Part shown: positions 8,231 to 51,774 of the stretch, one piece after another | Layout of the letters: the number at the start of each line of letters is the position of its first letter | How positions within the stretch are numbered: position 1 is the first letter of the stretch | Virus record (IMG/VR): IMGVR_UViG_3300022555_000045 | Location: 10,080-74,079 of that record | Length of the DNA stretch: 64,000 bases | Strand: one strand, 5' to 3' | Source of the DNA: a virus | Taxonomy: Duplodnaviria > Caudoviricetes | Made by a program: the position numbers and the translations under genes | Notes under the pieces: generated by a model | Seen by the model: only the letters and a program-made list of their open reading frames with translations | Databases searched by the model: none | What the model was told of the DNA's origin: nothing

Positions 8231-8452
8231 ATGACCGAAGTAACTTCAGCGTTTCCTCAGCGTAGGAATCCTTTATTCAACAGTTCGGCTGCTGCCGCTG
8301 CCCAGAACATCATAGATTCAACTAAACCTTTCCTTACTGCACCAAAGAGTCCTGTCACTGGTAAACTGATGGTTCGGTCTAGCATTGGTGACATTCCTGT
8401 TTGGTGGTGCCCTACTAGCCGTATTGTTCTACCTGTAGCCAAAGAAGAATAA
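8231..8452 (+). CDS. Small hypothetical protein
   Basis: SD ggag and a late motif upstream; 73 aa ending in VWWCPTSRIVLP, which looks like half of a Zn-ribbon. Confidence 0.7.
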   Translation: MTEVTSAFPQRRNPLFNSSAAAAAQNIIDSTKPFLTAPKSPVTGKLMVRSSIGDIPVWWCPTSRIVLPVAKEE

Positions 8453-17905: not shown

Positions 17906-18670
17906 ATGTTTGAAGTTCTTGGCGATTGTATGTCAGTGTCTAATAATCATGTTATTGAAGGATATTCGTTAGAAGAACAAAAACACCGTGTAGTAGCAGC
18001 TTACGATTCGCCCAAGGCGATTAGTGATATGCGTAACGTGCTTGACATGTCAACTTCTTGGTTAGAGCCAGTTTCTGAGAAGTATAAGATCAGTTCTAAC
18101 ATTAAGGATTACATTTTCGTACCAGTGGTGATATTCTCAACTAATTTACCTAACCGTAACGGTGTAGGTTTTCCAGTTGAACCTTTATTAGAGTTTAATC
18201 CTGAGACTGGTTGTTTAGGTTACGAATCATGGAAGCGTAAGTGTCTCCACGTGGAACATGATAATAAAGATATCACTAAGTCTAAAGGTACAATTTTTGA
18301 TTCTCGTATTTTCCCTATGCGTAACGCTAAAGGAAATCTGTTCAAAGTTGTACTTCTCACGGGCTGGGACCGTAGTAAAGACCCAGTTTTGGCAAACCAG
18401 ATACTATCTGGAGAGCGAACAAATTACTCAATGGGTTCTTGGTCTAGTGATTTTACCTGTTCAGTTTGTGGTAGTGCTTTTTCCAAGAACCAAAACGGGT
18501 GTGGTCACCTTTTCGTGTTAGGAAAAGAACCTCCCAAAATGCAAGAAGTTAACGGGCAGTTGGCTTTTTGGAAAGTTACATCAGTTCTCGGCTTCGAATG
18601 CTCTAGCGTCCGCGTTGGTGCCTATAGCTTGTTCAGTGAGACCCCAACTGACCGAATCTTCCAATATTGA
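17906..18670 (+). CDS. Prohead protease (with C-terminal Zn finger)
   Basis: NRNGVGF, HVEHDN, YSMGS, CSVCG...CGH and GFECSSV follow the herpes-fold prohead protease pattern; it lies upstream of scaffold and capsid. Confidence 0.75.
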   Translation: MFEVLGDCMSVSNNHVIEGYSLEEQKHRVVAAYDSPKAISDMRNVLDMSTSWLEPVSEKYKISSNIKDYIFVPVVIFSTNLPNRNGVGFPVEPLLEFNPETGCLGYESWKRKCLHVEHDNKDITKSKGTIFDSRIFPMRNAKGNLFKVVLLTGWDRSKDPVLANQILSGERTNYSMGSWSSDFTCSVCGSAFSKNQNGCGHLFVLGKEPPKMQEVNGQLAFWKVTSVLGFECSSVRVGAYSLFSETPTDRIFQY

Positions 18671-18719: not shown

Positions 18720-20084
18720 ATGCCAGTCTACGCTAATCATGCCAAGGAACTACTTTTTCTTAAAGCTAGGAAAGAAGGTAGGATAATTGTTAACAGGGAC
18801 GGTACCGTCGATACGCCAGATAAAAAGAATATAGGGCGTAAAGACAAAGACGGTTACGTTGTAATAACTTTAACAATTAACGGAGCTACTAAGAACATAC
18901 GGCGCGGTCGTCTAGTTTATTTAGTCTATATTGACAAAAACCTTGATCCTGTTTTGCAAATTAACCATAAGAACGGGATCAAGGATGATGATTGTGTAGA
19001 AAACATTGAGTCTATGACTGCTAGAGATAATATCTTACACGCTCATAGGACAGGTTTAGCCGACAATCGTCGTGCTCATGATGTAACCGACGATGCTACA
19101 GCTGCTAAGATTAGGAAAGTTTACTCTTACGGTTTTGACACATACGAGTCGGTTGGTAAGAAGTTTGGTGTGTCCGCAGGAGTAGTTGGACCTATAATTA
19201 AAAATGAACACTATATTGATCCTAACTACGATCCCTCTATTACCGCTGATATACGTAGTGGACGCTCCTTTGTTGACGAACAAGAGATGTACGATATGTA
19301 CATTTCTGGTAATTTCACCCACGCCGAGATAGGCAAGAAGTTTGGTGTTAGCACCAGAATAACACAGCGTGTAATTAACGCTTTTAACGCTGCTAAAGAG
19401 TCTTTTAACACTTCATTTAAACCTAACGACTTAGCTACGTGTAAGCATAATCGTAAGTTCACTGATGATGAGGTTCGTTACATTTTTAAACTTATAAATA
19501 CTAATAGGTATACCGATAAAGAAATTGGTGCTATGGTAGGCGTGTCTCGTCAAACCATTGGTGACTTACGTCTACGCAATACGTATAAATACGTTGATCT
19601 GTCTATTGAACCTCCTCGTACTATCGACTTGGTTAACCTAAAAAAGAAAATGTCAGCTACTAATATTGACAGGGATAAAGACGATCCCTTACCTGCGTGC
19701 CGAAAGTTCACTGACGACGAGATATACGATATTCTTGATCTGTACGCTACTGGTAAGTATGCCCATAGGAAAATTGGTGCTCTATACGGAGTGTCGTGCC
19801 CTACTATCGGTGCTATACTTCGTGGACAGTCTTACGCGCACCTCGTTTCTAACTATGTGCCAGGTTCTAGAAAGACTACTAATTCAAAACTACCGGAAGT
19901 TTTAGCACTGTTTTCTATGCCTATTAAGCAAACTACCCCTGTTAAATCTGTAACGAAAACTGCAAACGTCACTAAAATCGAGTCCAAGAGTAATAGGCAA
20001 GTTAAGCCTATTAAGACGGCTAAATCTGCCAAGTCAAGTAAAAATCCAGGAAAGGTTCTTAAACTCAAGAATCTTTTCGGTTAG
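18720..20084 (+). CDS. HNH homing endonuclease with multiple C-terminal HTH repeats
   Basis: INHKNGIKDDDCVENIESMTARDN (I-HmuI-like HNH), followed by repeats such as RKFTDDEV...EIGAMVGVSRQTI and RKFTDDEI...KIGALYGVSCPTI. Confidence 0.8.
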   Translation: MPVYANHAKELLFLKARKEGRIIVNRDGTVDTPDKKNIGRKDKDGYVVITLTINGATKNIRRGRLVYLVYIDKNLDPVLQINHKNGIKDDDCVENIESMTARDNILHAHRTGLADNRRAHDVTDDATAAKIRKVYSYGFDTYESVGKKFGVSAGVVGPIIKNEHYIDPNYDPSITADIRSGRSFVDEQEMYDMYISGNFTHAEIGKKFGVSTRITQRVINAFNAAKESFNTSFKPNDLATCKHNRKFTDDEVRYIFKLINTNRYTDKEIGAMVGVSRQTIGDLRLRNTYKYVDLSIEPPRTIDLVNLKKKMSATNIDRDKDDPLPACRKFTDDEIYDILDLYATGKYAHRKIGALYGVSCPTIGAILRGQSYAHLVSNYVPGSRKTTNSKLPEVLALFSMPIKQTTPVKSVTKTANVTKIESKSNRQVKPIKTAKSAKSSKNPGKVLKLKNLFG

Positions 20085-20299
20085 AAAATTTTAGCACTAA
20101 TAACAGGAAAATTTTTTGGGTTAATCTTAATTTTGAGTAATCCAGTTTTCTAAAAGTTATTTCGTGTTTTAAGATTTTCTAAAACCCTACGTAAATTCTA
20201 CCACTAAGTTGTCCTAGTTACCCTACTAAACACAGCACAATAACCCACTCTCATCAAGATGATTTATAATCAAAAATTGGAATCATCTTAATTTTGATA

Positions 20300-20630
20300 A
20301 TAGAGTTCCTAAGGAGTCTTTAGGATCCTCCGACTCCACCCGATAGGTTAGTAAGTCCTTTCCTTGAGGTATGAGGGGATCAGACCACGTGAATGAAAGA
20401 TTCCGTAGACGATACTGAAGAATATATAGGCACCGTAGGTTGTCGCCTCAGACCTACGCTCTGCGGTTGGGGACTAAACAGTCGTATAAGGTGTTAAGGA
20501 CAGTGAACCCAGCTCAAAACCTTCGGATATCAGGTCGAGAGGAAGACCAAAACCAAGGACAACTTGGCGGAGGCACAACAGTTGACACACTGCTAGGCTT
20601 CGTTTCTTGTAGCCTATACAAAGTGTCGCC
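20300..20630 (+). ncRNA. omega-RNA (HEARO-like) with 5' guide
   Basis: The conserved HEARO core is recognisable: gaatatataggcaccgtaggttgtcgcctcagacctacgctctgcgg...taaacag...gacagtg...aaaacc...gtcgagagg. P1 helix gatcctc (20324) pairs with ggggatc (20375-20381). Exact ends are inferred. Confidence 0.82.
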
Positions 20631-22002
20631 CTAAGAAAGTTATTACCATGGCTGAAGTCAAAGAATCTAAACCAAAGAAACCACCTGTTATCGTTTTCGT
20701 GTTAAATGTGAACGGTAAACCTCTGATGCCTTGCAAATCCCAAACTGCTAGACATCTCCTGAAAGACGGTAAAGCTAAAGTTGTTTCCAAGTTACCTTTC
20801 ACTATCAAACTGCTACAACCTACCACTAACTATACCCAGCCTATCTCTGCTGCTTTGATAGTAAATTCTACTGCGGTTAAGACCGCAGCAGTTAGAATCG
20901 ATTCTGAAGAGTCTACTCCGATTCCTCTCTATGTTTCTGTAACTGTTCTCCGTAATGACATTTCTGGTAAACTAGAGCAACGAGGTAACTATCGTAGAAC
21001 GCGGCGCTCTAGGAAGACACGTTATCGCGAACAACGGTCTAACAACCGAGCTAATTCCTGTAAGAATGGTAAGATACCGCCTTCCATTAGGTCTAAACTA
21101 GAATCTATTGAGCGTATAAAGAAGAAGATTAACCGTCTACTTCCTAACGTTCAGTGGAAAGAGCAGCTTTCCTCCTTCTCCAAGAAACGGTTAGAGAACC
21201 CTAAGTCTAAAAACTGGAAGACCGCTAACGATAATAATTCTGACTGGCTTAACATTAAAGGTGCAGTGTTAGCTAGAGACAGTTACCGTTGTCAGATGGT
21301 AAAAGGCGGCAAGCATTCTCACGAGCTTCACGTTCACCACAAGATTCCTAGGTCAGACGGCGGTACTAATGAGTTAGATAACCTTATTACTGCTTGTAAG
21401 GATCACCACGTAGCCTATCATAAAGGTAAGTTGAAGTACAACGGTACTAGAGTTTCTACTAAACGTACGACCCATATGGATATAATACGGTCTCAGAGAA
21501 TTAAGAAAGGTTGTAAACAAACCTTCGGTTACCTTACCAAAAAGAAGAGGATTAAGTGGGAAGTAGAAGGTGCTGATCACGACGCCATCCTAGCTGCTTG
21601 TGGCTTGAAGAATCATAAGCCTGAACTGAACTATGTTACCTATCAGGAACGTCATGTTGCTCACGGGGATTATCAACAGACGTGGGGTAAACACTCAGAG
21701 AAGGTGTATCAAACAGGAAAATTGTTTGACTTACGGAAGTTTGATCTAGTTAGAATAATGTATAAAGGCAATCTCTTAACTGGCTTTGTTAAAGGCAAGC
21801 GCGCTACAGGTTATTTTGATATAATGGGAATAGACAATAAGACTATTCTTACTAAAGAGGGTAGAAAACTTAGCGGAGTTAATGTTAAAAAATACAGCGT
21901 TAGGTTACAAGCTAGGTCAACTACTTTGATTCAACCATTAGCATAAGAAAGGGTCGCTTTATTCTTCACTAAAAGTGTTGAAGTATATAGCGATAAACAT
22001 TA
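20324..22002 (+). mobile_element. Non-autonomous IS200/IS605-family IscB (OMEGA) element
   Basis: HEARO/omega-RNA, then iscB, then a right-end hairpin (tcgct...cactaaaagtg...agcga, 21954-21993), followed by ATGA. No tnpA in the window. Confidence 0.8.
20648..21946 (+). CDS. iscB: IscB RNA-guided nuclease, RuvC-inactivated variant
   Basis: PLMP domain (VFVLNVNGKPLMPC), Arg-rich bridge helix (QRGNYRRTRRSRKTRYR) and HNH (LHVHHKIPRSDGGTNELDNLITACKDHHVAYH). RuvC-I reads ISAALIVNS instead of LGxDxGS. Confidence 0.9.
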   Translation: MAEVKESKPKKPPVIVFVLNVNGKPLMPCKSQTARHLLKDGKAKVVSKLPFTIKLLQPTTNYTQPISAALIVNSTAVKTAAVRIDSEESTPIPLYVSVTVLRNDISGKLEQRGNYRRTRRSRKTRYREQRSNNRANSCKNGKIPPSIRSKLESIERIKKKINRLLPNVQWKEQLSSFSKKRLENPKSKNWKTANDNNSDWLNIKGAVLARDSYRCQMVKGGKHSHELHVHHKIPRSDGGTNELDNLITACKDHHVAYHKGKLKYNGTRVSTKRTTHMDIIRSQRIKKGCKQTFGYLTKKKRIKWEVEGADHDAILAACGLKNHKPELNYVTYQERHVAHGDYQQTWGKHSEKVYQTGKLFDLRKFDLVRIMYKGNLLTGFVKGKRATGYFDIMGIDNKTILTKEGRKLSGVNVKKYSVRLQARSTTLIQPLA

Positions 22003-23961
22003 ATGAAGTTTGAAACCACTGCTGCCATTCTGGCATCTGCTGACAGGCCGGTGCTAGCAGGGCATGACAAGGGGCAACTCCGTAGCGTTACGCTTGCCCT
22101 TTTACATTGCTCTGATTGTGATACTAACATCCTTACAAACTACTCTCTACATGCAGGTTGTGTAGCTTGTGGAAGTACTTTAATTCCGTCAGAATCGATT
22201 GTCCAGAAAGATACCGCTGGCAATCCACTTACTGATAAAGACGGTGATACAGTAATTGCTACCATCGACGTTGATAAGTCGGCTTTAGCTAACTTAGAAA
22301 TCGTCGCTACTTGCACAGAGTGTGATACTACTTTCCGTAGCGATGCAGTATTTGCGTCGTCCCTTTCTAACGAGCAGATTTATTGCCCAGTATGCTCTTC
22401 AGTTTTGGAGATCGCTGCTGAAGCTACTCCTGATGCCACCCCAGAAGCAGCACCTGCTGAAGAAGAGGCTCCCGCAGAACCTTTGAACGACAACGCAGGT
22501 GATGAACCTTCTACTGCTATGACTGATGATGACGTTAAGGCTGACGGTCAGTTGATTACTTCTAACGCTAAGCACACTAAAGAGCATCACGATAAGCACA
22601 AGCCTGAACACAAGGCTGAAGAGCCAAGTGAAAAGAAGCCTGATCATAAAGCCGAGCACGAGGAAAAGAAGCCGGAACACAAGCCAGAAGATAAGAAGGT
22701 TGAAAAGACTGAAGAAGTTAAAGCAACCTCTGAAACCCCAGTTGTTGAAGACGAAGGTCTGAAAGACACTGGCGCTACTGGACCCAAGGTTGTTAAGATT
22801 ACAGCCAACGAACTTCTTGAAGCCCCGAAGGCTGCCGAGCACAAGCACGATGAAAAGTGTGAAGGTAAAGGATGCAAAGACGTGACCGCTGCTGAAGATG
22901 CACCCAAAGCTGACGAGACTAAAGCAGAAGACACCAAGACTGACGCTAAAGGTGATGAAGGTTCTGAAGAGCATCACAAGAAGCACCACGACAAGCACAA
23001 AGAGCATGCTAAACACGAACATAAAGAGCATGCTAAACACGAACATAAAGAGCATGCTAAACACGAGCACAAGAAGCACGCTGAAAAGACTGACGACGAG
23101 TCTGCGGAAGCCACTAAGAAGACAGACGAAGCTCCCAAGGCTGAAGAGACCAAGGAAGTTAAGGCTATTCTTGAGGTTGACGCTTCGGTAATGTTGCTTG
23201 GTGGTAATGCTACTAGCTACAACTTTGTTATGTCAAGTGCTGATAAACCCACTTGGTTCTTGTTTGCTGACAATCGTCCAGTTGCTTGGTCAGATAAGAC
23301 TGCCGTATCTGCTAACTTAGCTAAGCATTATGACAGTCAAGCTTTTGGTAAAGCGTTTGCTGCCGCTGCTGCAGACGGTATTACTCCCGAGCTTATTAAG
23401 GAATTTGGTCTAGCTGCTTCAACAATTCGGTTTGAAACCGACGAAGTTACCGCTTGTGCTATTAAGACTGCGGTAGAAGCTAAGACTAAAGAACTTAATG
23501 ATCGGTTAGTACAGGTTAAGTCATCTTTTGAACAGGCTGTTGGTATTGCTGCCGTTGGTGTTAACAAGAACTTCTTTGCAGACGCTCCAAATACTCTGCG
23601 TAAGGCTCTTGTTAGTGTTCTTAGTAGCATTAACGTCAATCATCCTGAACACCTAGTTGATTCAGTACTTGCTCAGCACGGTCAGGATTATCTGAAGGCT
23701 ATTATTGCTAAGGCAATGGACCTACAGACTAAATCACCTGATATGCTTAATGAATACGCTAATTTAGTTGAGTCAGCACCGTACACTTCTGGCGTTGTTT
23801 CTACTCCGTCCAGTGCTGGTGAACGTCATGCTAACGAATTAGCCGCTGGTAGCATGCCTCTTTCAGTCTCTGCCTCTCTGATGGAAGACAAGCCCGTTGC
23901 TCCACAGGACAATATTCGTCGGTTGTTCAAGGACATTGGCCGTACCCCTCGTCGTATTTAA
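22003..23961 (+). CDS. Probable capsid scaffold protein with N-terminal Zn fingers and a His/Lys/Glu-rich linker
   Basis: Located between the protease and capsid genes; four CxxC pairs, a charged low-complexity middle and a helical C-terminus. Confidence 0.7.
   Translation: MKFETTAAILASADRPVLAGHDKGQLRSVTLALLHCSDCDTNILTNYSLHAGCVACGSTLIPSESIVQKDTAGNPLTDKDGDTVIATIDVDKSALANLEIVATCTECDTTFRSDAVFASSLSNEQIYCPVCSSVLEIAAEATPDATPEAAPAEEEAPAEPLNDNAGDEPSTAMTDDDVKADGQLITSNAKHTKEHHDKHKPEHKAEEPSEKKPDHKAEHEEKKPEHKPEDKKVEKTEEVKATSETPVVEDEGLKDTGATGPKVVKITANELLEAPKAAEHKHDEKCEGKGCKDVTAAEDAPKADETKAEDTKTDAKGDEGSEEHHKKHHDKHKEHAKHEHKEHAKHEHKEHAKHEHKKHAEKTDDESAEATKKTDEAPKAEETKEVKAILEVDASVMLLGGNATSYNFVMSSADKPTWFLFADNRPVAWSDKTAVSANLAKHYDSQAFGKAFAAAAADGITPELIKEFGLAASTIRFETDEVTACAIKTAVEAKTKELNDRLVQVKSSFEQAVGIAAVGVNKNFFADAPNTLRKALVSVLSSINVNHPEHLVDSVLAQHGQDYLKAIIAKAMDLQTKSPDMLNEYANLVESAPYTSGVVSTPSSAGERHANELAAGSMPLSVSASLMEDKPVAPQDNIRRLFKDIGRTPRRI
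22999..23070 (+). repeat. 24-bp coding tandem repeat x3 (KEHAKHEH)
   Basis: aaagagcatgctaaacacgaacat repeated three times, the last copy with two substitutions. Confidence 0.9.
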
Positions 23962-24046
23962 TACCCGGTTGGCTTCCAACCACTGATTAGTAATCAACGC
24001 CTCTGGGGTTTTTAAAGAAAACAACCCCGAATTAGGAGACCTTTAG

Positions 24047-24751
24047 ATGTTTGATTTTGCACGTACTCGTATCGAAGCCAGCCGTGAGATCCCTACTTCT
24101 CCTCTTTATCAGATCACTTCTGAAGGCTTGGCCCTGGTTTCTGACCTGTACAATGGTCGTGGTGTAGTTCGTCCGTCATCTGGAACTAACGCCAACGAAA
24201 TCTTTGCCGGTTTCTCACTGGCTCAGAACATTGCCGGTACCGCCGCCATTCAGGTTGAAGACCTGCTTGTTCCTGCTAACGCTCCTTACACTGTTGCTCT
24301 GCAGCAGTCGCCGGACGCCGCTGCTAACACTCTCGTCAAGACTTCAGGTACTGGGGTTCTTACCTACAACGTAGCCGTTGGCGCTGGTCAGTTCAATCTG
24401 GTCAACAACGTTGTTACTTTCAACGCCGCTCAGGCTGGTCAGTCAGTTAAGGTTGTTTATCGTTATAACCTTTCAGCCCTCGCTGCTGAAATGCTGTATG
24501 GCGATCAGCCGATTGGTAAGACTGCCGCTTCTATTCTCAATTCAGTTTCTGTTATTACTAAGGGTGTTGTTTTCACTGACAATTACAACACTTCTGACGA
24601 TTATTCTACTGCAGTTGATGGTTCAGTTCCGGTCATCGCTGGAGCCAACGGACAGATTCAGCTTGGTGGGACAGGCGCTCGGGTCACCGGTCGTATCGTT
24701 CACGTTCCTACTGCTGACGTTCCTTTCCTTGGCGTTTACATTAACGTCTAA
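24047..24751 (+). CDS. Head structural / capsid decoration protein
   Basis: Beta-rich 234-aa protein immediately upstream of the major capsid gene; SD aggag. Confidence 0.6.
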   Translation: MFDFARTRIEASREIPTSPLYQITSEGLALVSDLYNGRGVVRPSSGTNANEIFAGFSLAQNIAGTAAIQVEDLLVPANAPYTVALQQSPDAAANTLVKTSGTGVLTYNVAVGAGQFNLVNNVVTFNAAQAGQSVKVVYRYNLSALAAEMLYGDQPIGKTAASILNSVSVITKGVVFTDNYNTSDDYSTAVDGSVPVIAGANGQIQLGGTGARVTGRIVHVPTADVPFLGVYINV

Positions 24752-24849: not shown

Positions 24850-25947
24850 ATGACCGGATTTAATCTATCTCTGCGTAGTCAGAAGGGGCGTAACGCTGCT
24901 GCCGTTCCTGGTGTTCATTTTAAGCGCCCTGGTTCTAAAGAACGTCTCGTCGGTGCTAACGGTGAAATCAACGCCTCCAGCCGTACAGACCTTATTGTTC
25001 AGCTTGCTGCTCTTATTGATTCTAATAACCAAGGCATGATTGATGAAGGTGCTGGTGAAGTAACAGCTTCTGCTAAAGAGCGGAACGAAGTTCTTTCAGC
25101 AGCTTTCGCTGATAAGTCTGGTAGCCGTTGGTCCGAGATCGGTGCTGGTATGGCCGGTACCCTTTCTGAAGCCGCCGACCGTGACGGTTTCATGCGTAAG
25201 ATCCTTATTAAGGAAGAAGTCGCACAGGGTAACGTTCCCCGTATCCGCGTTCGTCGTAAGCGGGTCACTGCTATTATATCAGCCGGTAACGGTAGTATTT
25301 ACCCGACCATCGCTCGTGACGATTACTACTATCCGCCAGAATTCACCATTTCTGCTAACGTTCGCGTTGAAAAGCGTGAACTGAATCAGGGGTCAGGTGA
25401 CATTCTTGCTGACAAGTACCAGGAAGCCGCTGAGCAGGTACTCAAGACTGAGGATTTACGCTTAAAAGAATTGCTTGATGCCACCGTTGGTATTGCTAAC
25501 CCGCTCGTCGCACTTGTTGGTGGTTTGACTGTTAGTACTTTTACCCACATGCGCCAGCAGATTTCCGCTTATAATTTGCCAGTAAGCAAGTGCCTTTTTA
25601 GTAGCTCATATTGGAACGATTTGATCTCTTCTTCATCATTCGGTTCTTACTATGATCCAGTTACTAAGTATGAACTTCTTCAGACAGGTTACCTCGGTAA
25701 CATTCTTGGCGTAGACTTGATCAGCGATGCTTATAGGCACCCAAATCTTCGCGTTTTAGGCCAATCGGACTTCTACATGTTGGGCGACGGCGCGAATCTC
25801 GGGGCATATTGTGATCGAGGACCGATTGAGTCAGTGGAGGTATCTGAGGCTACTTTGGGTTCCAATTCACGTGGTTTCTTCTTAAGTGAGGATCTGGCTA
25901 TGTTACTATTTAATGCCAGGGCCGTTGTTCGTGCCGTTCGAGCCTAA
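24850..25947 (+). CDS. Major capsid protein
   Basis: 365 aa; RDGFMRKIL...QGNVPRIR and GYLGNILGVDLISDAYRHP are HK97-fold MCP segments typical of this jumbo phage type; highly biased codon usage. Confidence 0.85.
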   Translation: MTGFNLSLRSQKGRNAAAVPGVHFKRPGSKERLVGANGEINASSRTDLIVQLAALIDSNNQGMIDEGAGEVTASAKERNEVLSAAFADKSGSRWSEIGAGMAGTLSEAADRDGFMRKILIKEEVAQGNVPRIRVRRKRVTAIISAGNGSIYPTIARDDYYYPPEFTISANVRVEKRELNQGSGDILADKYQEAAEQVLKTEDLRLKELLDATVGIANPLVALVGGLTVSTFTHMRQQISAYNLPVSKCLFSSSYWNDLISSSSFGSYYDPVTKYELLQTGYLGNILGVDLISDAYRHPNLRVLGQSDFYMLGDGANLGAYCDRGPIESVEVSEATLGSNSRGFFLSEDLAMLLFNARAVVRAVRA

Positions 25948-26138: not shown

Positions 26139-27536
26139 GTGGCACGCGATTCCTCGGTTAAGAATTCTAAGTTCCCGTATAGCGACTCCTACTTAGCTAA
26201 GAATAATCTTACTAGAAACTCTTCTGGTTACTTAATAGACGCTTCTACTGGAAGAATAGCTAAGAAAACCACTAAACTATTTAAGTACGAACTGCATCAA
26301 AATTTTGGTAATGACTACCTCCTAAAGGGAGAATATTTAGGATCGAAAGTAGTTCATACGTTCACGCATTCTTGTGGCCTAGACTTTCAAGCTAAAGCTA
26401 ACCTATTGTTATTAGGCCGTGCTAAGTGCCCGTGTAGCACACAATTACATGTACACACTTTCGAAACTCACTCTAAACAAATTTTAGAGCTTTGGGGTGG
26501 AAAATACCTTTTAAACATTTTTAATGGTGGAGATAAGTACACTAATAACTATAAGCATAACCCAGAAGTTGGTGGGTGTGGCGGTGACTTTGATGCTTAT
26601 TTTGGTACAATGGCTTATAGAAAGGTGTGTCCTAAGTGTCCTTGTTGCGATACTATGATTGGGCGTACTGTAACTTGTGAAATAGCTAACGATCGCCTTA
26701 GCCAACAGACTAATGACTTCTACTTTGTAGAAGAGTCTTACGTTAACATCCATACACCTTGTAAAATAATACATAAAGGGTGTAATAAACCTTTCGTTAG
26801 AAATCCTAGCGAGTTTTTAAGGTACAAACACAAGTTTTGTCCAGGTTGTCATGGAGAACACGGCACGGATAGGATGTTTCTTGAGGAAGACCTAGTCAGG
26901 CAACGAGTAAAAGACAAAGACTCTGACTGGGATTTAGTATCTGGAACGTTTAATGGTATAAACAGGAACGCTACTTTTGTTCATAAGTGTGGCAATACTA
27001 TAACTCGTCGTCCAGCAGGATTTTTTAAGAATCCTGTATACTGTATAACTTGTGACGGGGGTAAAGGTCCAGGTGCTAAACACATCATGACCTATGAAGG
27101 TGTTGACTATTTATACCAAGGGTTTGAAGATCAAACCCGCTTGGAACTTTTCAAGAAATACAAACCGTCATCTATTATTTCTGGACATGAACTTGGAAAA
27201 CGGTTAACTGTAAACTATATGTTTAAAGGTGAGACGTTAACTTACTTTCCTGACTTTCATGTTTGGCGTGCTAACCTTGTAGTAGAAAGTAAGTGCTTAG
27301 CTACATTAGGTATTGTAGATAAAAACCATTTGTTTGGTGGTCATGACTTGTATAGTAAAAATCAAGCTAAGGCTGCCGAAACATTAAGGTTAGGTTACAA
27401 GTACGAATTTCACCTCTATGATGAAGTTAGTAGGTTACGTCTTTGGTCTCTACCTAACAATTGGTATAAATTACCAATTCTAGAGTTGGCAAAAATACTG
27501 GTACTAGATATCAACATGTCTACTTACTTTAAGTGA
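26139..27536 (+). CDS. Putative free-standing homing endonuclease: Zn-ribbon repeats plus a C-terminal PD-(D/E)XK domain
   Basis: Repeated HxCG/CPxC modules; C-terminal YFPDFHV...VVESKC. Confidence 0.7.
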   Translation: MARDSSVKNSKFPYSDSYLAKNNLTRNSSGYLIDASTGRIAKKTTKLFKYELHQNFGNDYLLKGEYLGSKVVHTFTHSCGLDFQAKANLLLLGRAKCPCSTQLHVHTFETHSKQILELWGGKYLLNIFNGGDKYTNNYKHNPEVGGCGGDFDAYFGTMAYRKVCPKCPCCDTMIGRTVTCEIANDRLSQQTNDFYFVEESYVNIHTPCKIIHKGCNKPFVRNPSEFLRYKHKFCPGCHGEHGTDRMFLEEDLVRQRVKDKDSDWDLVSGTFNGINRNATFVHKCGNTITRRPAGFFKNPVYCITCDGGKGPGAKHIMTYEGVDYLYQGFEDQTRLELFKKYKPSSIISGHELGKRLTVNYMFKGETLTYFPDFHVWRANLVVESKCLATLGIVDKNHLFGGHDLYSKNQAKAAETLRLGYKYEFHLYDEVSRLRLWSLPNNWYKLPILELAKILVLDINMSTYFK

Positions 27537-51645: not shown

Positions 51646-51774
51646 CAATCGTGTACCATGATCTAACAATCGTGTACCATGATCTAACAATCGTGTACCA
51701 TGATCTAACAATCGTGTACCATGATCTAACAATCGTGTACCATGATCTAACAATCGTGTACCATGATCTAACAA
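51636..51774. repeat. 21-bp tandem array, 6.6 identical copies
   Basis: catgatctaacaatcgtgtac at 51636, 51657, 51678, 51699, 51720 and 51741, plus a partial copy at 51762. Confidence 0.95.

What the first reader, a model, noticed from the sequence alone, without database searches (positions are those of the whole stretch)
20287..22008. Element inserted exactly between the scaffold Shine-Dalgarno and its ATGA start: the guide targets empty alleles
Deleting 20324-22002 gives cctAAGGAGtctttag|ATGAAGTTT, an SD with 7-nt spacing. This closely resembles the next gene's own initiation region (ttAGGAGacctttagATG, 24033-24049). In IscB systems the guide is the 5' flank and the TAM comes from the other flank; ATGA is a known IscB TAM. 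The predicted guide (about tagagttcctaaggagtctttag) therefore targets the scaffold translation-start site of element-free relatives, while self is protected (next bases GATCC). The late motif at 20287 would transcribe the guide-bearing RNA. This suggests RNA-guided homing or inter-phage exclusion aimed at an essential capsid gene.
Basis: partly seen in the sequence, partly recalled or inferred. Interest (0 to 1): 0.88.

Follow-up and report, generated by a model that had tools for sequence, protein, structure and literature searches.

The report
RuvC-dead IscB element at phage start codon
A jumbo phage carries a small mobile element encoding IscB (the RNA-guided ancestor of Cas9) wedged between the ribosome-binding site and start codon of a head gene, so its guide RNA spells the uninterrupted site; one of its two cutting centres is dead, so it probably nicks element-free relatives, but no such relative was found.

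Summary
An IscB gene (20648-21946) and its omega-RNA (HEARO match 20325-20550) lie between an orphan Shine-Dalgarno (AAGGAG, 20311-20316) and the SD-less ATG (22003) of a head-module gene. Both proposed boundaries fit family rules. The left one is the first base of the omega-RNA. The right one abuts ATGAA, the flank seen in 14 of 14 sister-clade IscB elements (NTGAA) and the published ISC target (N|ATGA) and GstIscB TAM. More distant relatives have protease directly followed by the head gene, one with AGGAG-7 nt-ATG.

- All four RuvC catalytic positions are replaced while HNH, PLMP, the Arg-rich helix and the C-terminal domain are conserved. The enzyme is therefore predicted to nick, not cut both strands.
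- Placement at the start codon follows from the ATGA target preference, not from aiming at an essential gene.
- No empty allele exists in any collection searched. All 27 contigs of this phage carry the element, or begin inside it, so homing or exclusion remains an inference.

This scan has noted similar phage IscB elements on other DNA. I rate it a new variant of a known kind, of moderate interest.

The parts
18720..20084 (+). Free-standing HNH homing-endonuclease-like gene (454 aa), context: a second selfish insertion between protease and head gene
   Evidence: PHROG 59 HNH endonuclease, 3.4e-33. Absent between protease and the head gene in relative L015.
20285..20297 (+). Promoter-like motif ATCTTAATTTTGA (second of two copies; the other is at 20124)
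   Evidence: CTTAATTTT occurs 9 times on the + strand, all intergenic; seven of the nine lie 34-74 nt before a start codon. Promoter function is inferred.
20308..20323 (+). Predicted guide (16 nt, CCTAAGGAGTCTTTAG), containing the orphan SD AAGGAG (20311-20316) and the 7-nt spacer
   Evidence: It lies directly 5' of omega-RNA position 1. It is unique in the window. It is the only intergenic AAGGAG without a start codon.
20324..20647 (+). Omega-RNA scaffold; the HEARO-matching part is 20325-20550
   Evidence: Rfam RF02033, 65.5 bits, E 2.7e-12, model 1-211. The first helix GAUCCUC/GAGGGGAUC replaces GUCAAC/GUUGAC of sister-clade copies.
20648..21946 (+). iscB, 432 aa: PLMP, Arg-rich helix, HNH and C-terminal domain conserved; RuvC catalytic residues replaced (I71, Q173, D310, A313)
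21947..22002 (+). 3' terminal region of the element, with a 15-bp imperfect hairpin (21953-21994)
   Evidence: RNA fold, centroid structure. The z-score of the 101-nt stretch is not significant. Subterminal hairpins are typical of IS200/IS605 ends (PMC4810608).
22003..22008 (+). ATGAAG: start codon of the head gene and predicted TAM / transposon target (N|ATGA)
   Evidence: Sequence. NTGAA follows the 3' end of 14 of 14 sister-clade elements. Literature.
22003..23961 (+). 652-aa head-module protein (scaffold-like by position; Zn-ribbon N-terminus, charged low-complexity middle), now without an SD
   Evidence: It lies between the prohead protease (17906-18670) and the major head protein (24850-25947). 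Homologues in L015 and L016 align from M1. There is no SD.

Best explanation
Shown: this is a non-autonomous ISC-type (IS200/IS605 superfamily) IscB-omega-RNA element of 1679 bp. It sits at an N|ATGAA site that happens to be the start codon of a head-module gene of an uncultured jumbo phage of about 250 kb. The gene's promoter-like motif and Shine-Dalgarno now lie 5' of the element, and its ATG lies 3' of it. The IscB has lost its RuvC active site but keeps the HNH site, all RNA-binding parts and the C-terminal domain.

Inferred: transcription from the gene's own promoter-like motif produces an RNA whose first 20 nt or so (the old 5'UTR) act as the guide, followed by the omega-RNA scaffold. 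The RNP recognises CCTAAGGAGTCTTTAG followed by ATGA(A). That sequence exists only in genomes without the element, because the resident copy is followed by GATCCT. The RNP would nick the target strand, which is the template strand, a few bases before the start codon. In a replicating phage genome a nick becomes a break. Repair from the element-bearing co-infecting genome would copy the element and neighbouring markers, or the rival genome would be lost. This is the way the nicking HNH homing endonucleases of SPO1-like phages work. The element is fixed in all sampled genomes of this phage.
For: - Identity.
- Boundaries: HEARO position 1 at 20324/20325. Sister-clade copies begin at the omega-RNA start after variable flanks and end just before NTGAA, in 14 of 14 informative loci: 9 ATGAA, 4 CTGAA, 1 TTGAA. 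Published N|ATGA target, GstIscB TAM TTCAT, which equals ATGAA, and DtIsrB NTGA.
- Insertion: the orphan SD is the only intergenic AAGGAG without a start codon, and ATG 22003 has no SD. In relatives L015 and L016 (major head protein 53-54% identical) the protease is followed by the homologous gene with no IscB. L016 has AGGAG-7 nt-ATG, and its M1 aligns with M1 here.
- Nickase: 119 of 120 best homologues have D, E, H, D where the phage protein has I, Q, D, A; the one exception is this phage's own cluster representative. HNH H230, H231, N245 and H254 are kept.
- Loss is confined to RuvC: 23 of 52 highly conserved columns are kept in RuvC segments against 78 of 86 elsewhere, Fisher P 4e-9. This points to relaxed selection on RuvC only.
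- Engineered RuvC-I Asp mutants of IscB are used as nickases (PMC9755519).
- The gene is intact, and its GC and codon usage match the phage.
- Promoter-like motif.
- The guide is unique in the window.
Against: - No element-free allele was found. All 27 contigs carrying the head gene have the element upstream or begin inside it. Junction patterns gave only chance hits.
- All contigs are one nearly identical strain, so selection on the element cannot be measured within the phage.
- The TAM of this particular IscB is inferred from relatives about 45% identical.
- No RNA data could be obtained, so the 5' end of the guide is unknown.
- The HEARO score is below Rfam's gathering score.
- The IscB sits on a long branch (0.93 against about 0.25), which also fits partial decay.
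- One HNH zinc-ligand position that is Cys in 118 of 120 homologues is His here (C253H); a neighbouring position that is Cys in 86 of 120 is Val.
- No TnpA is present in the 74-kb contig, so how it arrived is open.
Confidence: 0.55

Rival explanations
1. Stranded passenger. The element transposed once into N|ATGAA, using a host TnpA on single-stranded phage DNA, and became fixed. It is now inert, and the dead RuvC is the first stage of decay. It is tolerated because the head gene is still translated.
For: All RuvC catalytic residues are lost. The branch is long. No TnpA is present. No empty allele exists for it to act on. An HNH zinc ligand is changed. The insertion costs the head gene its SD.
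Against: The 432-codon frame is open. Of the highly conserved columns outside RuvC, 91% are retained against 44% inside it (P 4e-9). HNH catalytic residues and a full-length omega-RNA match are kept. Composition has converged on the phage's, which suggests long residence without loss of the frame.
Confidence: 0.25
2. Exapted RNA-guided binder or weapon kept for the phage's benefit without copying itself. Examples are exclusion of related phages by nicking or blocking their head-gene start region, or a regulator of the head operon.
For: The pattern is the same as above: RuvC lost, the rest kept. It lies inside a late structural operon behind a promoter-like motif. RuvC-dead TnpB relatives became transcription factors (bioRxiv 10.1101/2023.11.30.569447, listed).
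Against: HNH catalytic residues are fully kept, which a pure binder would not need. The only guide match in the window is the self site, which lacks the TAM. No target is known in the remaining ~180 kb of the genome or in a rival phage.
Confidence: 0.15
3. Fully active double-strand nuclease, with RuvC working through other residues.
For: Acidic residues lie near the lost positions (E172 before Q173; D310 and D312 in 'ADHDA').
Against: The RuvC-I Asp is Ile, and the surrounding GxDxG motif is gone (AALIVNS against AGMDTGS). RuvC-II Glu is Gln. In total 29 of 52 conserved RuvC columns are changed. Single D-to-A changes at RuvC-I suffice to make IscB a nickase.
Confidence: 0.05

Closest known systems
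ISC transposons with N|ATGA target (Kapitonov, Makarova & Koonin 2016, PMC4810608), and the Methanosarcina-type IscB clade fetched here (L022-L045)
   Same: Non-autonomous element of about 1.7 kb encoding only IscB. The omega-RNA/HEARO lies at the 5' end in the same orientation. There is no target-site duplication. It is inserted immediately 5' of ATGA(A), often a start codon.
   Different: The host is a jumbo phage. The 5' terminus reads GATCC... instead of GTCA.... The 3' end has 56 nt and a hairpin after the stop codon, against 6 nt in the archaeal copies. RuvC is dead. It is single-copy, with no TnpA in the 74-kb contig.
GstIscB / ISGst element of Geobacillus stearothermophilus (Meers et al. 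2023, bioRxiv 10.1101/2023.03.14.532601)
   Same: The guide is the flank next to the omega-RNA end. The TAM on the other flank is TTCAT 5' of LE, which equals ATGAA in IscB orientation. The donor joint or empty site is the target, and the self copy is protected by lack of a TAM.
   Different: GstIscB has an active RuvC and acts with TnpA to restore excised copies on sister chromosomes. Here there is no TnpA, RuvC is dead, and the only possible targets are other phage genomes.
Nicking HNH homing endonucleases of phages (I-HmuI and I-HmuII of SPO1/SP82; cited from my own knowledge, and Goodrich-Blair & Shub 1996 as listed in PMC13565253)
   Same: A phage-borne HNH enzyme expected to nick one strand of the element-free allele, giving biased inheritance and marker exclusion in mixed infections.
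   Different: Those enzymes read DNA by protein contacts and sit in group I introns. Here recognition would be by a 16-nt RNA guide plus TAM, and the element interrupts a 5'UTR, not a coding sequence.
IsrB (HNH-less OMEGA nickase; Hirano et al. 2022, PMC9581776)
   Same: A natural single-strand-cutting member of the IscB family with an omega-RNA and an NTGA TAM.
   Different: IsrB lacks HNH and nicks the non-target strand with RuvC. This protein is the mirror image: HNH kept, RuvC dead, so a target-strand nick is expected.

Membership tests
IscB (OMEGA RNA-guided nuclease) | PLMP N-terminal domain, Arg-rich bridge helix (RRXRR) and inserted HNH domain; curated family model | tested here: met
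   Pfam RRXRR 1.1e-38 and HNH 6.3e-9. NCBIfam NF040563 guided_IscB, 211.4 bits, cut-off 175. PLMP and all Arg columns are kept. Solved IscB structures match at E 2e-21.
IscB (OMEGA RNA-guided nuclease) | RuvC catalytic residues (D, E, H, D) | tested here: not met
   I71, Q173, D310, A313, where 119 of 120 best homologues have D, E, H, D; the RuvC-III pair depends on the alignment. It is a sequence member of the family but not a two-site nuclease.
IscB (OMEGA RNA-guided nuclease) | HNH catalytic residues | tested here: met
   H230, H231, N245, H254 and H258 are identical in 120 of 120 homologues and in the phage protein. One zinc-ligand position that is Cys in 118 of 120 homologues is His here (C253H); a neighbouring position that is Cys in 86 of 120 is Val.
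IscB (OMEGA RNA-guided nuclease) | Omega-RNA (HEARO) directly upstream on the same strand | tested here: met
   RF02033 full-length match at 20325-20550, E 2.7e-12. The 65.5 bits are below the gathering score of 83.
IscB (OMEGA RNA-guided nuclease) | Guide- and TAM-dependent DNA cleavage | not testable with these tools
   This needs biochemistry or interference assays.
ISC / IS200-IS605 element with N|ATGA target | 3' end abuts ATGA; no target-site duplication | tested here: met
   ...ACATTA|ATGAAG, with no repeat of the flanks. NTGAA lies at the 3' boundary of 14 of 14 sister-clade copies. Kapitonov 2016.
ISC / IS200-IS605 element with N|ATGA target | 5' terminus is the first base of the omega-RNA (5'-GT...) | tested here: inconclusive
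   HEARO position 1 maps to 20324/20325. The terminus reads GATCC rather than GTCA, and helix 1 is kept by changed pairs. Accuracy is about 1 nt.
ISC / IS200-IS605 element with N|ATGA target | Subterminal imperfect hairpins | tested here: inconclusive
   A 15-bp imperfect hairpin lies at 21953-21994, 8 nt from the 3' end. The fold is not better than shuffles (z -0.41).
ISC / IS200-IS605 element with N|ATGA target | Y1 transposase TnpA in cis or in the genome | tested here: not met
   PF01797 is absent from the 74-kb contig, which is about a third of the genome. Most IscB elements also lack it.
ISC / IS200-IS605 element with N|ATGA target | Empty orthologous site in a relative | tested here: not met
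   None was found in the 27 contigs of this phage or in the viral and metagenome collections. Only distant relatives show the uninterrupted gene order.
Homing endonuclease (functional class) | Cuts the element-free allele and is copied into it | not testable with these tools
   Inferred from the anatomy only.

The most novel reading that the evidence does not exclude
A jumbo phage maintains a naturally RuvC-dead, HNH-only IscB as an RNA-programmed nicking homing or exclusion element. Its guide is the ribosome-binding region of an essential head gene and its TAM is that gene's start codon. The element's terminal hairpin has been co-opted to bring a substitute SD (AAGAAAGG) next to the displaced ATG. 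This would be the first natural target-strand OMEGA nickase with a defined biological target, and a working example of 'non-restorative' transposon homing between phages.
Probability: 0.3. Interest if true: 0.8.

Novelty: new variant of a known kind. Interest (0 to 1): 0.55.

Why it matters
IscB elements are known to protect their own copy in bacterial chromosomes. A 2026 review (PMC13565253) still calls spread into co-infecting phages or plasmids by cutting the orthologous empty site theoretical for phages. This locus gives a precise, testable case: a 16-nt guide, a predicted ATGA(A) TAM, a defined self/non-self difference and a promoter-like motif. It also offers a natural IscB in which only the HNH site survives under apparent selection. 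That is of interest for the biology of nick-driven homing and as a compact natural nickase. Finally, it shows how the ATGA target preference places such elements between SD and start codon, which forces the host gene to find another way to initiate translation.

Tried and rejected
- DNA search of the phage collection with 5.8 kb around the locus found no match.
- Relatives of the 652-aa protein: IMG/VR gave none, the phage collection gave only matches at or below 35% identity, and the 5.8-billion-protein search returned only its own cluster, probably swamped by low-complexity words.
- Empty-junction patterns: two exact or degenerate patterns found nothing in IMG/VR. The metagenome scan gave three chance hits, MKFETTAIHAG... 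PLP enzymes. A 19-nt guide+ATGA pattern hit one unrelated myovirus contig, L020, at the RBS of a tail-tube-like gene. About 0.4 hits were expected by chance, and the contig shares no homology with this locus.
- The AlphaFold2 model of IscB from a 16-row alignment had mean pLDDT 46, so it was too poor for fold comparison and was not used.
- I tested whether the RuvC-dead state is an old shared trait. Another RuvC-dead representative, P0154 (L021, with HEARO and a tnpA remnant), falls in a different clade, so the losses look independent.
- Other phage IscBs (Staphylococcus JDF86, Clostridium c-st) keep RuvC.
- Comparison of 14 kb among the phage's contigs gave no substitutions, so dN/dS is impossible.
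Full report
**What is there**

The window is part of a 74-kb IMG/VR viral contig, estimated at about a third of a genome; an essentially identical phage occurs on a 254-kb contig. The finding lies in the head module:
- prohead protease, 17906-18670
- a free-standing HNH endonuclease gene, 18720-20084
- a 563-nt gap
- a 432-aa ORF, 20648-21946
- a 652-aa protein, 22003-23961
- a virion protein, 24047-24751
- the major head protein, 24850-25947
- another HNH endonuclease gene, 26139-27536

The 432-aa protein is an IscB. It matches Pfam RRXRR (1.1e-38) and HNH, the NCBIfam equivalog guided_IscB (211 bits, cut-off 175) and solved IscB structures (E 2e-21). Directly upstream on the same strand, Rfam HEARO (the IscB omega-RNA) matches over its whole length at 20325-20550. 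The score is 65.5 bits with E 2.7e-12, below the gathering score of 83.

**The observation**

The sequence reads ...TTCCTAAGGAGTCTTTAG | GATCCTCCGACTCC... on the left and ...GATAAACATTA | ATGAAGTTTGAA... on the right.
- AAGGAG (20311-20316) followed by 7 nt is a typical initiation region for this phage. 31 of 42 genes have an SD core.
- The word AAGGAG occurs four times in + strand intergenic DNA. Three copies lie 7-9 nt before a gene's ATG, and this fourth one is followed by the omega-RNA instead.
- ATG 22003 has no SD.
- The start is genuine. The homologous proteins of two more distant phages align from M1 with conserved N-terminal residues, and one of them (L016) is preceded by AGGAG-7 nt-ATG.
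- In those relatives (major head protein 53-54% identical) the protease is followed by the homologous gene without any IscB.

**Boundaries**

Both proposed boundaries follow family rules that I could test.

I fetched 72 loci of the sister IscB clade (about 45% identical; Methanosarcina and others) and aligned the ends of 15 full copies. Homology begins exactly at the omega-RNA start (GTCAAyTACCCC...), after unrelated flanks. It ends a few bases after the stop codon, always followed by NTGAA. The count over 14 informative copies is 9 ATGAA, 4 CTGAA and 1 TTGAA, and beyond that the flanks diverge. Several of these ATGAA words look like start codons of the next gene.

This agrees with three published results:
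- ISC transposons insert at N|ATGA without target duplication (PMC4810608).
- The GstIscB TAM is TTCAT written 5' of the left end, which is ATGAA in IscB orientation (bioRxiv 10.1101/2023.03.14.532601).
- DtIsrB uses NTGA (PMC9581776).

In the phage, the first omega-RNA helix (GAUCCUC/GAGGGGAUC) replaces GUCAAC/GUUGAC of the sister clade. This places the first scaffold base at 20324, give or take one. The element is thus 20324-22002, the guide is the 5' flank, and ATGAAG (the start codon plus the Lys codon) is the predicted TAM. The exact position between SD and ATG is a consequence of the ATGA preference. It is not evidence of targeting an essential gene.

**The nuclease**

Among the 120 best homologues, 119 have D, E, H and D at the four RuvC catalytic columns. 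The phage protein has I71, Q173, D310 and A313, and the one exception is its own cluster representative. The HNH residues H230, H231, N245, H254 and H258 are identical in all homologues.

The loss is confined to RuvC. Of the columns at least 95% conserved among homologues, the phage protein keeps 23 of 52 in the three RuvC segments. It keeps 78 of 86 in PLMP, the Arg-rich helix, HNH and the C-terminal domain (Fisher P 4e-9; the segment limits are my own approximation).

This pattern argues for continued selection on RNA binding, target or TAM reading and HNH chemistry, with RuvC released. Engineered RuvC-I Asp mutants of IscB are used as nickases (PMC9755519). The expected activity is therefore a nick in the strand paired with the guide.

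Further context on this trait:
- Two other phage IscBs (Staphylococcus JDF86, Clostridium c-st) keep RuvC.
- An exhaustive profile search found no relative closer than 47% identity.
- That search found one more RuvC-dead representative (P0154), with a HEARO and a tnpA remnant. It sits in a different clade, so the losses appear independent.
- The phage IscB sits on a long branch.

**Expression**

The motif CTTAATTTT occurs nine times on the + strand, and all nine are intergenic, although about 85% of the window is coding. Several follow terminator-like hairpins. Seven of the nine lie 34-74 nt before a start codon (six before listed genes, one before a short ORF near 8233); the other two are the copies at 20126 and 20287. 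The copy at 20287 would lie 37 nt before the ATG in the reconstructed site. If it is a promoter, transcripts start some 20-25 nt before the scaffold and carry the guide. No RNA data could be obtained, so this step is inferred.

**Self and non-self**

The 16-nt guide sequence is unique in the window. Its resident copy is followed by GATCCT, not ATGA. This is the standard self-protection of OMEGA elements.

**What could not be shown**

No element-free allele was found.
- All 27 contigs that carry the head gene have the element upstream or begin inside it.
- They are one strain: 14 kb are identical except for a 24-nt indel in the low-complexity part of the head gene.
- Junction patterns found only chance matches in IMG/VR and JGI metagenomes.

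Homing or exclusion is therefore a reasoned inference from family behaviour and anatomy, not an observation. The 'scaffold' label for the 652-aa protein rests on gene order. Its only family hit is a PHROG annotated 'ATPase'.

**Verdict**

The proposed mechanism is the standard OMEGA logic moved to a phage, with the important change that the enzyme is a predicted nickase.

I put about 0.55 on an active RNA-guided nicking homing or exclusion element. The rivals are an inert passenger (0.25), an exapted binder or weapon that does not copy itself (0.15), and a true double-strand nuclease (0.05).

Earlier notes of this scan describe similar IscB and IsrB elements in front of phage start codons, and RuvC-dead IscBs on other DNA. 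Those notes gave me the lead to Kapitonov et al. 2016, which I read and then tested on fetched loci.

Against the literature I could search, this is a new variant of a known kind.

Noticed in passing
window 21797 (L003:1, L005:1): Two contigs of 103 and 110 kb, from different assemblies and assemblers, both begin at exactly this base inside the 3' part of iscB. That suggests a branch in the population, for example a variant whose homology starts here. No repeat in the window explains it.
   Followed up: partly
window 21945-22005 and 20626-20650: AAGAAAGG, then a 15-bp imperfect hairpin (21953-21994), then 8 nt, then ATG 22003. This mimics the AAGAAAG + 8 nt + ATG arrangement in front of iscB itself. 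The terminal hairpin might bring a weak substitute SD next to the displaced start codon.
   Followed up: partly
window 20124-20141 and 20285-20302: Two copies of the promoter-like motif ATCTTAATTTTGA lie 161 nt apart, with 143 nt of non-coding DNA between them. They sit just after the HNH endonuclease gene, which may reflect a promoter duplication linked to one of the insertions.
   Followed up: no
window 18720-20084 and 26139-27536; L016:6075-6683: The head module holds two free-standing HNH endonuclease genes besides IscB. A relative has an endonuclease-VII-like gene (Phage_gp49_66) at the same protease/head-gene junction, so this junction collects nuclease genes.
   Followed up: partly
window 51646-51750: About five tandem copies of a 21-nt unit (caatcgtgtaccatgatctaa) lie in the intergenic region before gene 51806.
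   Followed up: no
L020:2925-2943 (-): An unrelated IMG/VR myovirus contig carries 15 of the 16 guide bases plus ATGA (19 nt exact) at the RBS and start of a tail-tube-like gene. This is probably chance, since RBS-like words are common, but it is a formally cleavable site.
   Followed up: partly
L021:1397-1534: The independent RuvC-dead IscB (P0154) is followed by a 45-codon remnant resembling the N-terminus of an IS200-type TnpA (...HLIFVVKYRKKLL...).
   Followed up: no
window 22003-23961: The 652-aa head-module protein has two pairs of CxxC...CxxC motifs at its N-terminus, conserved in relatives. Its His/Lys/Glu-rich repeat region varies by a 24-nt indel between otherwise identical genomes.
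   Followed up: partly
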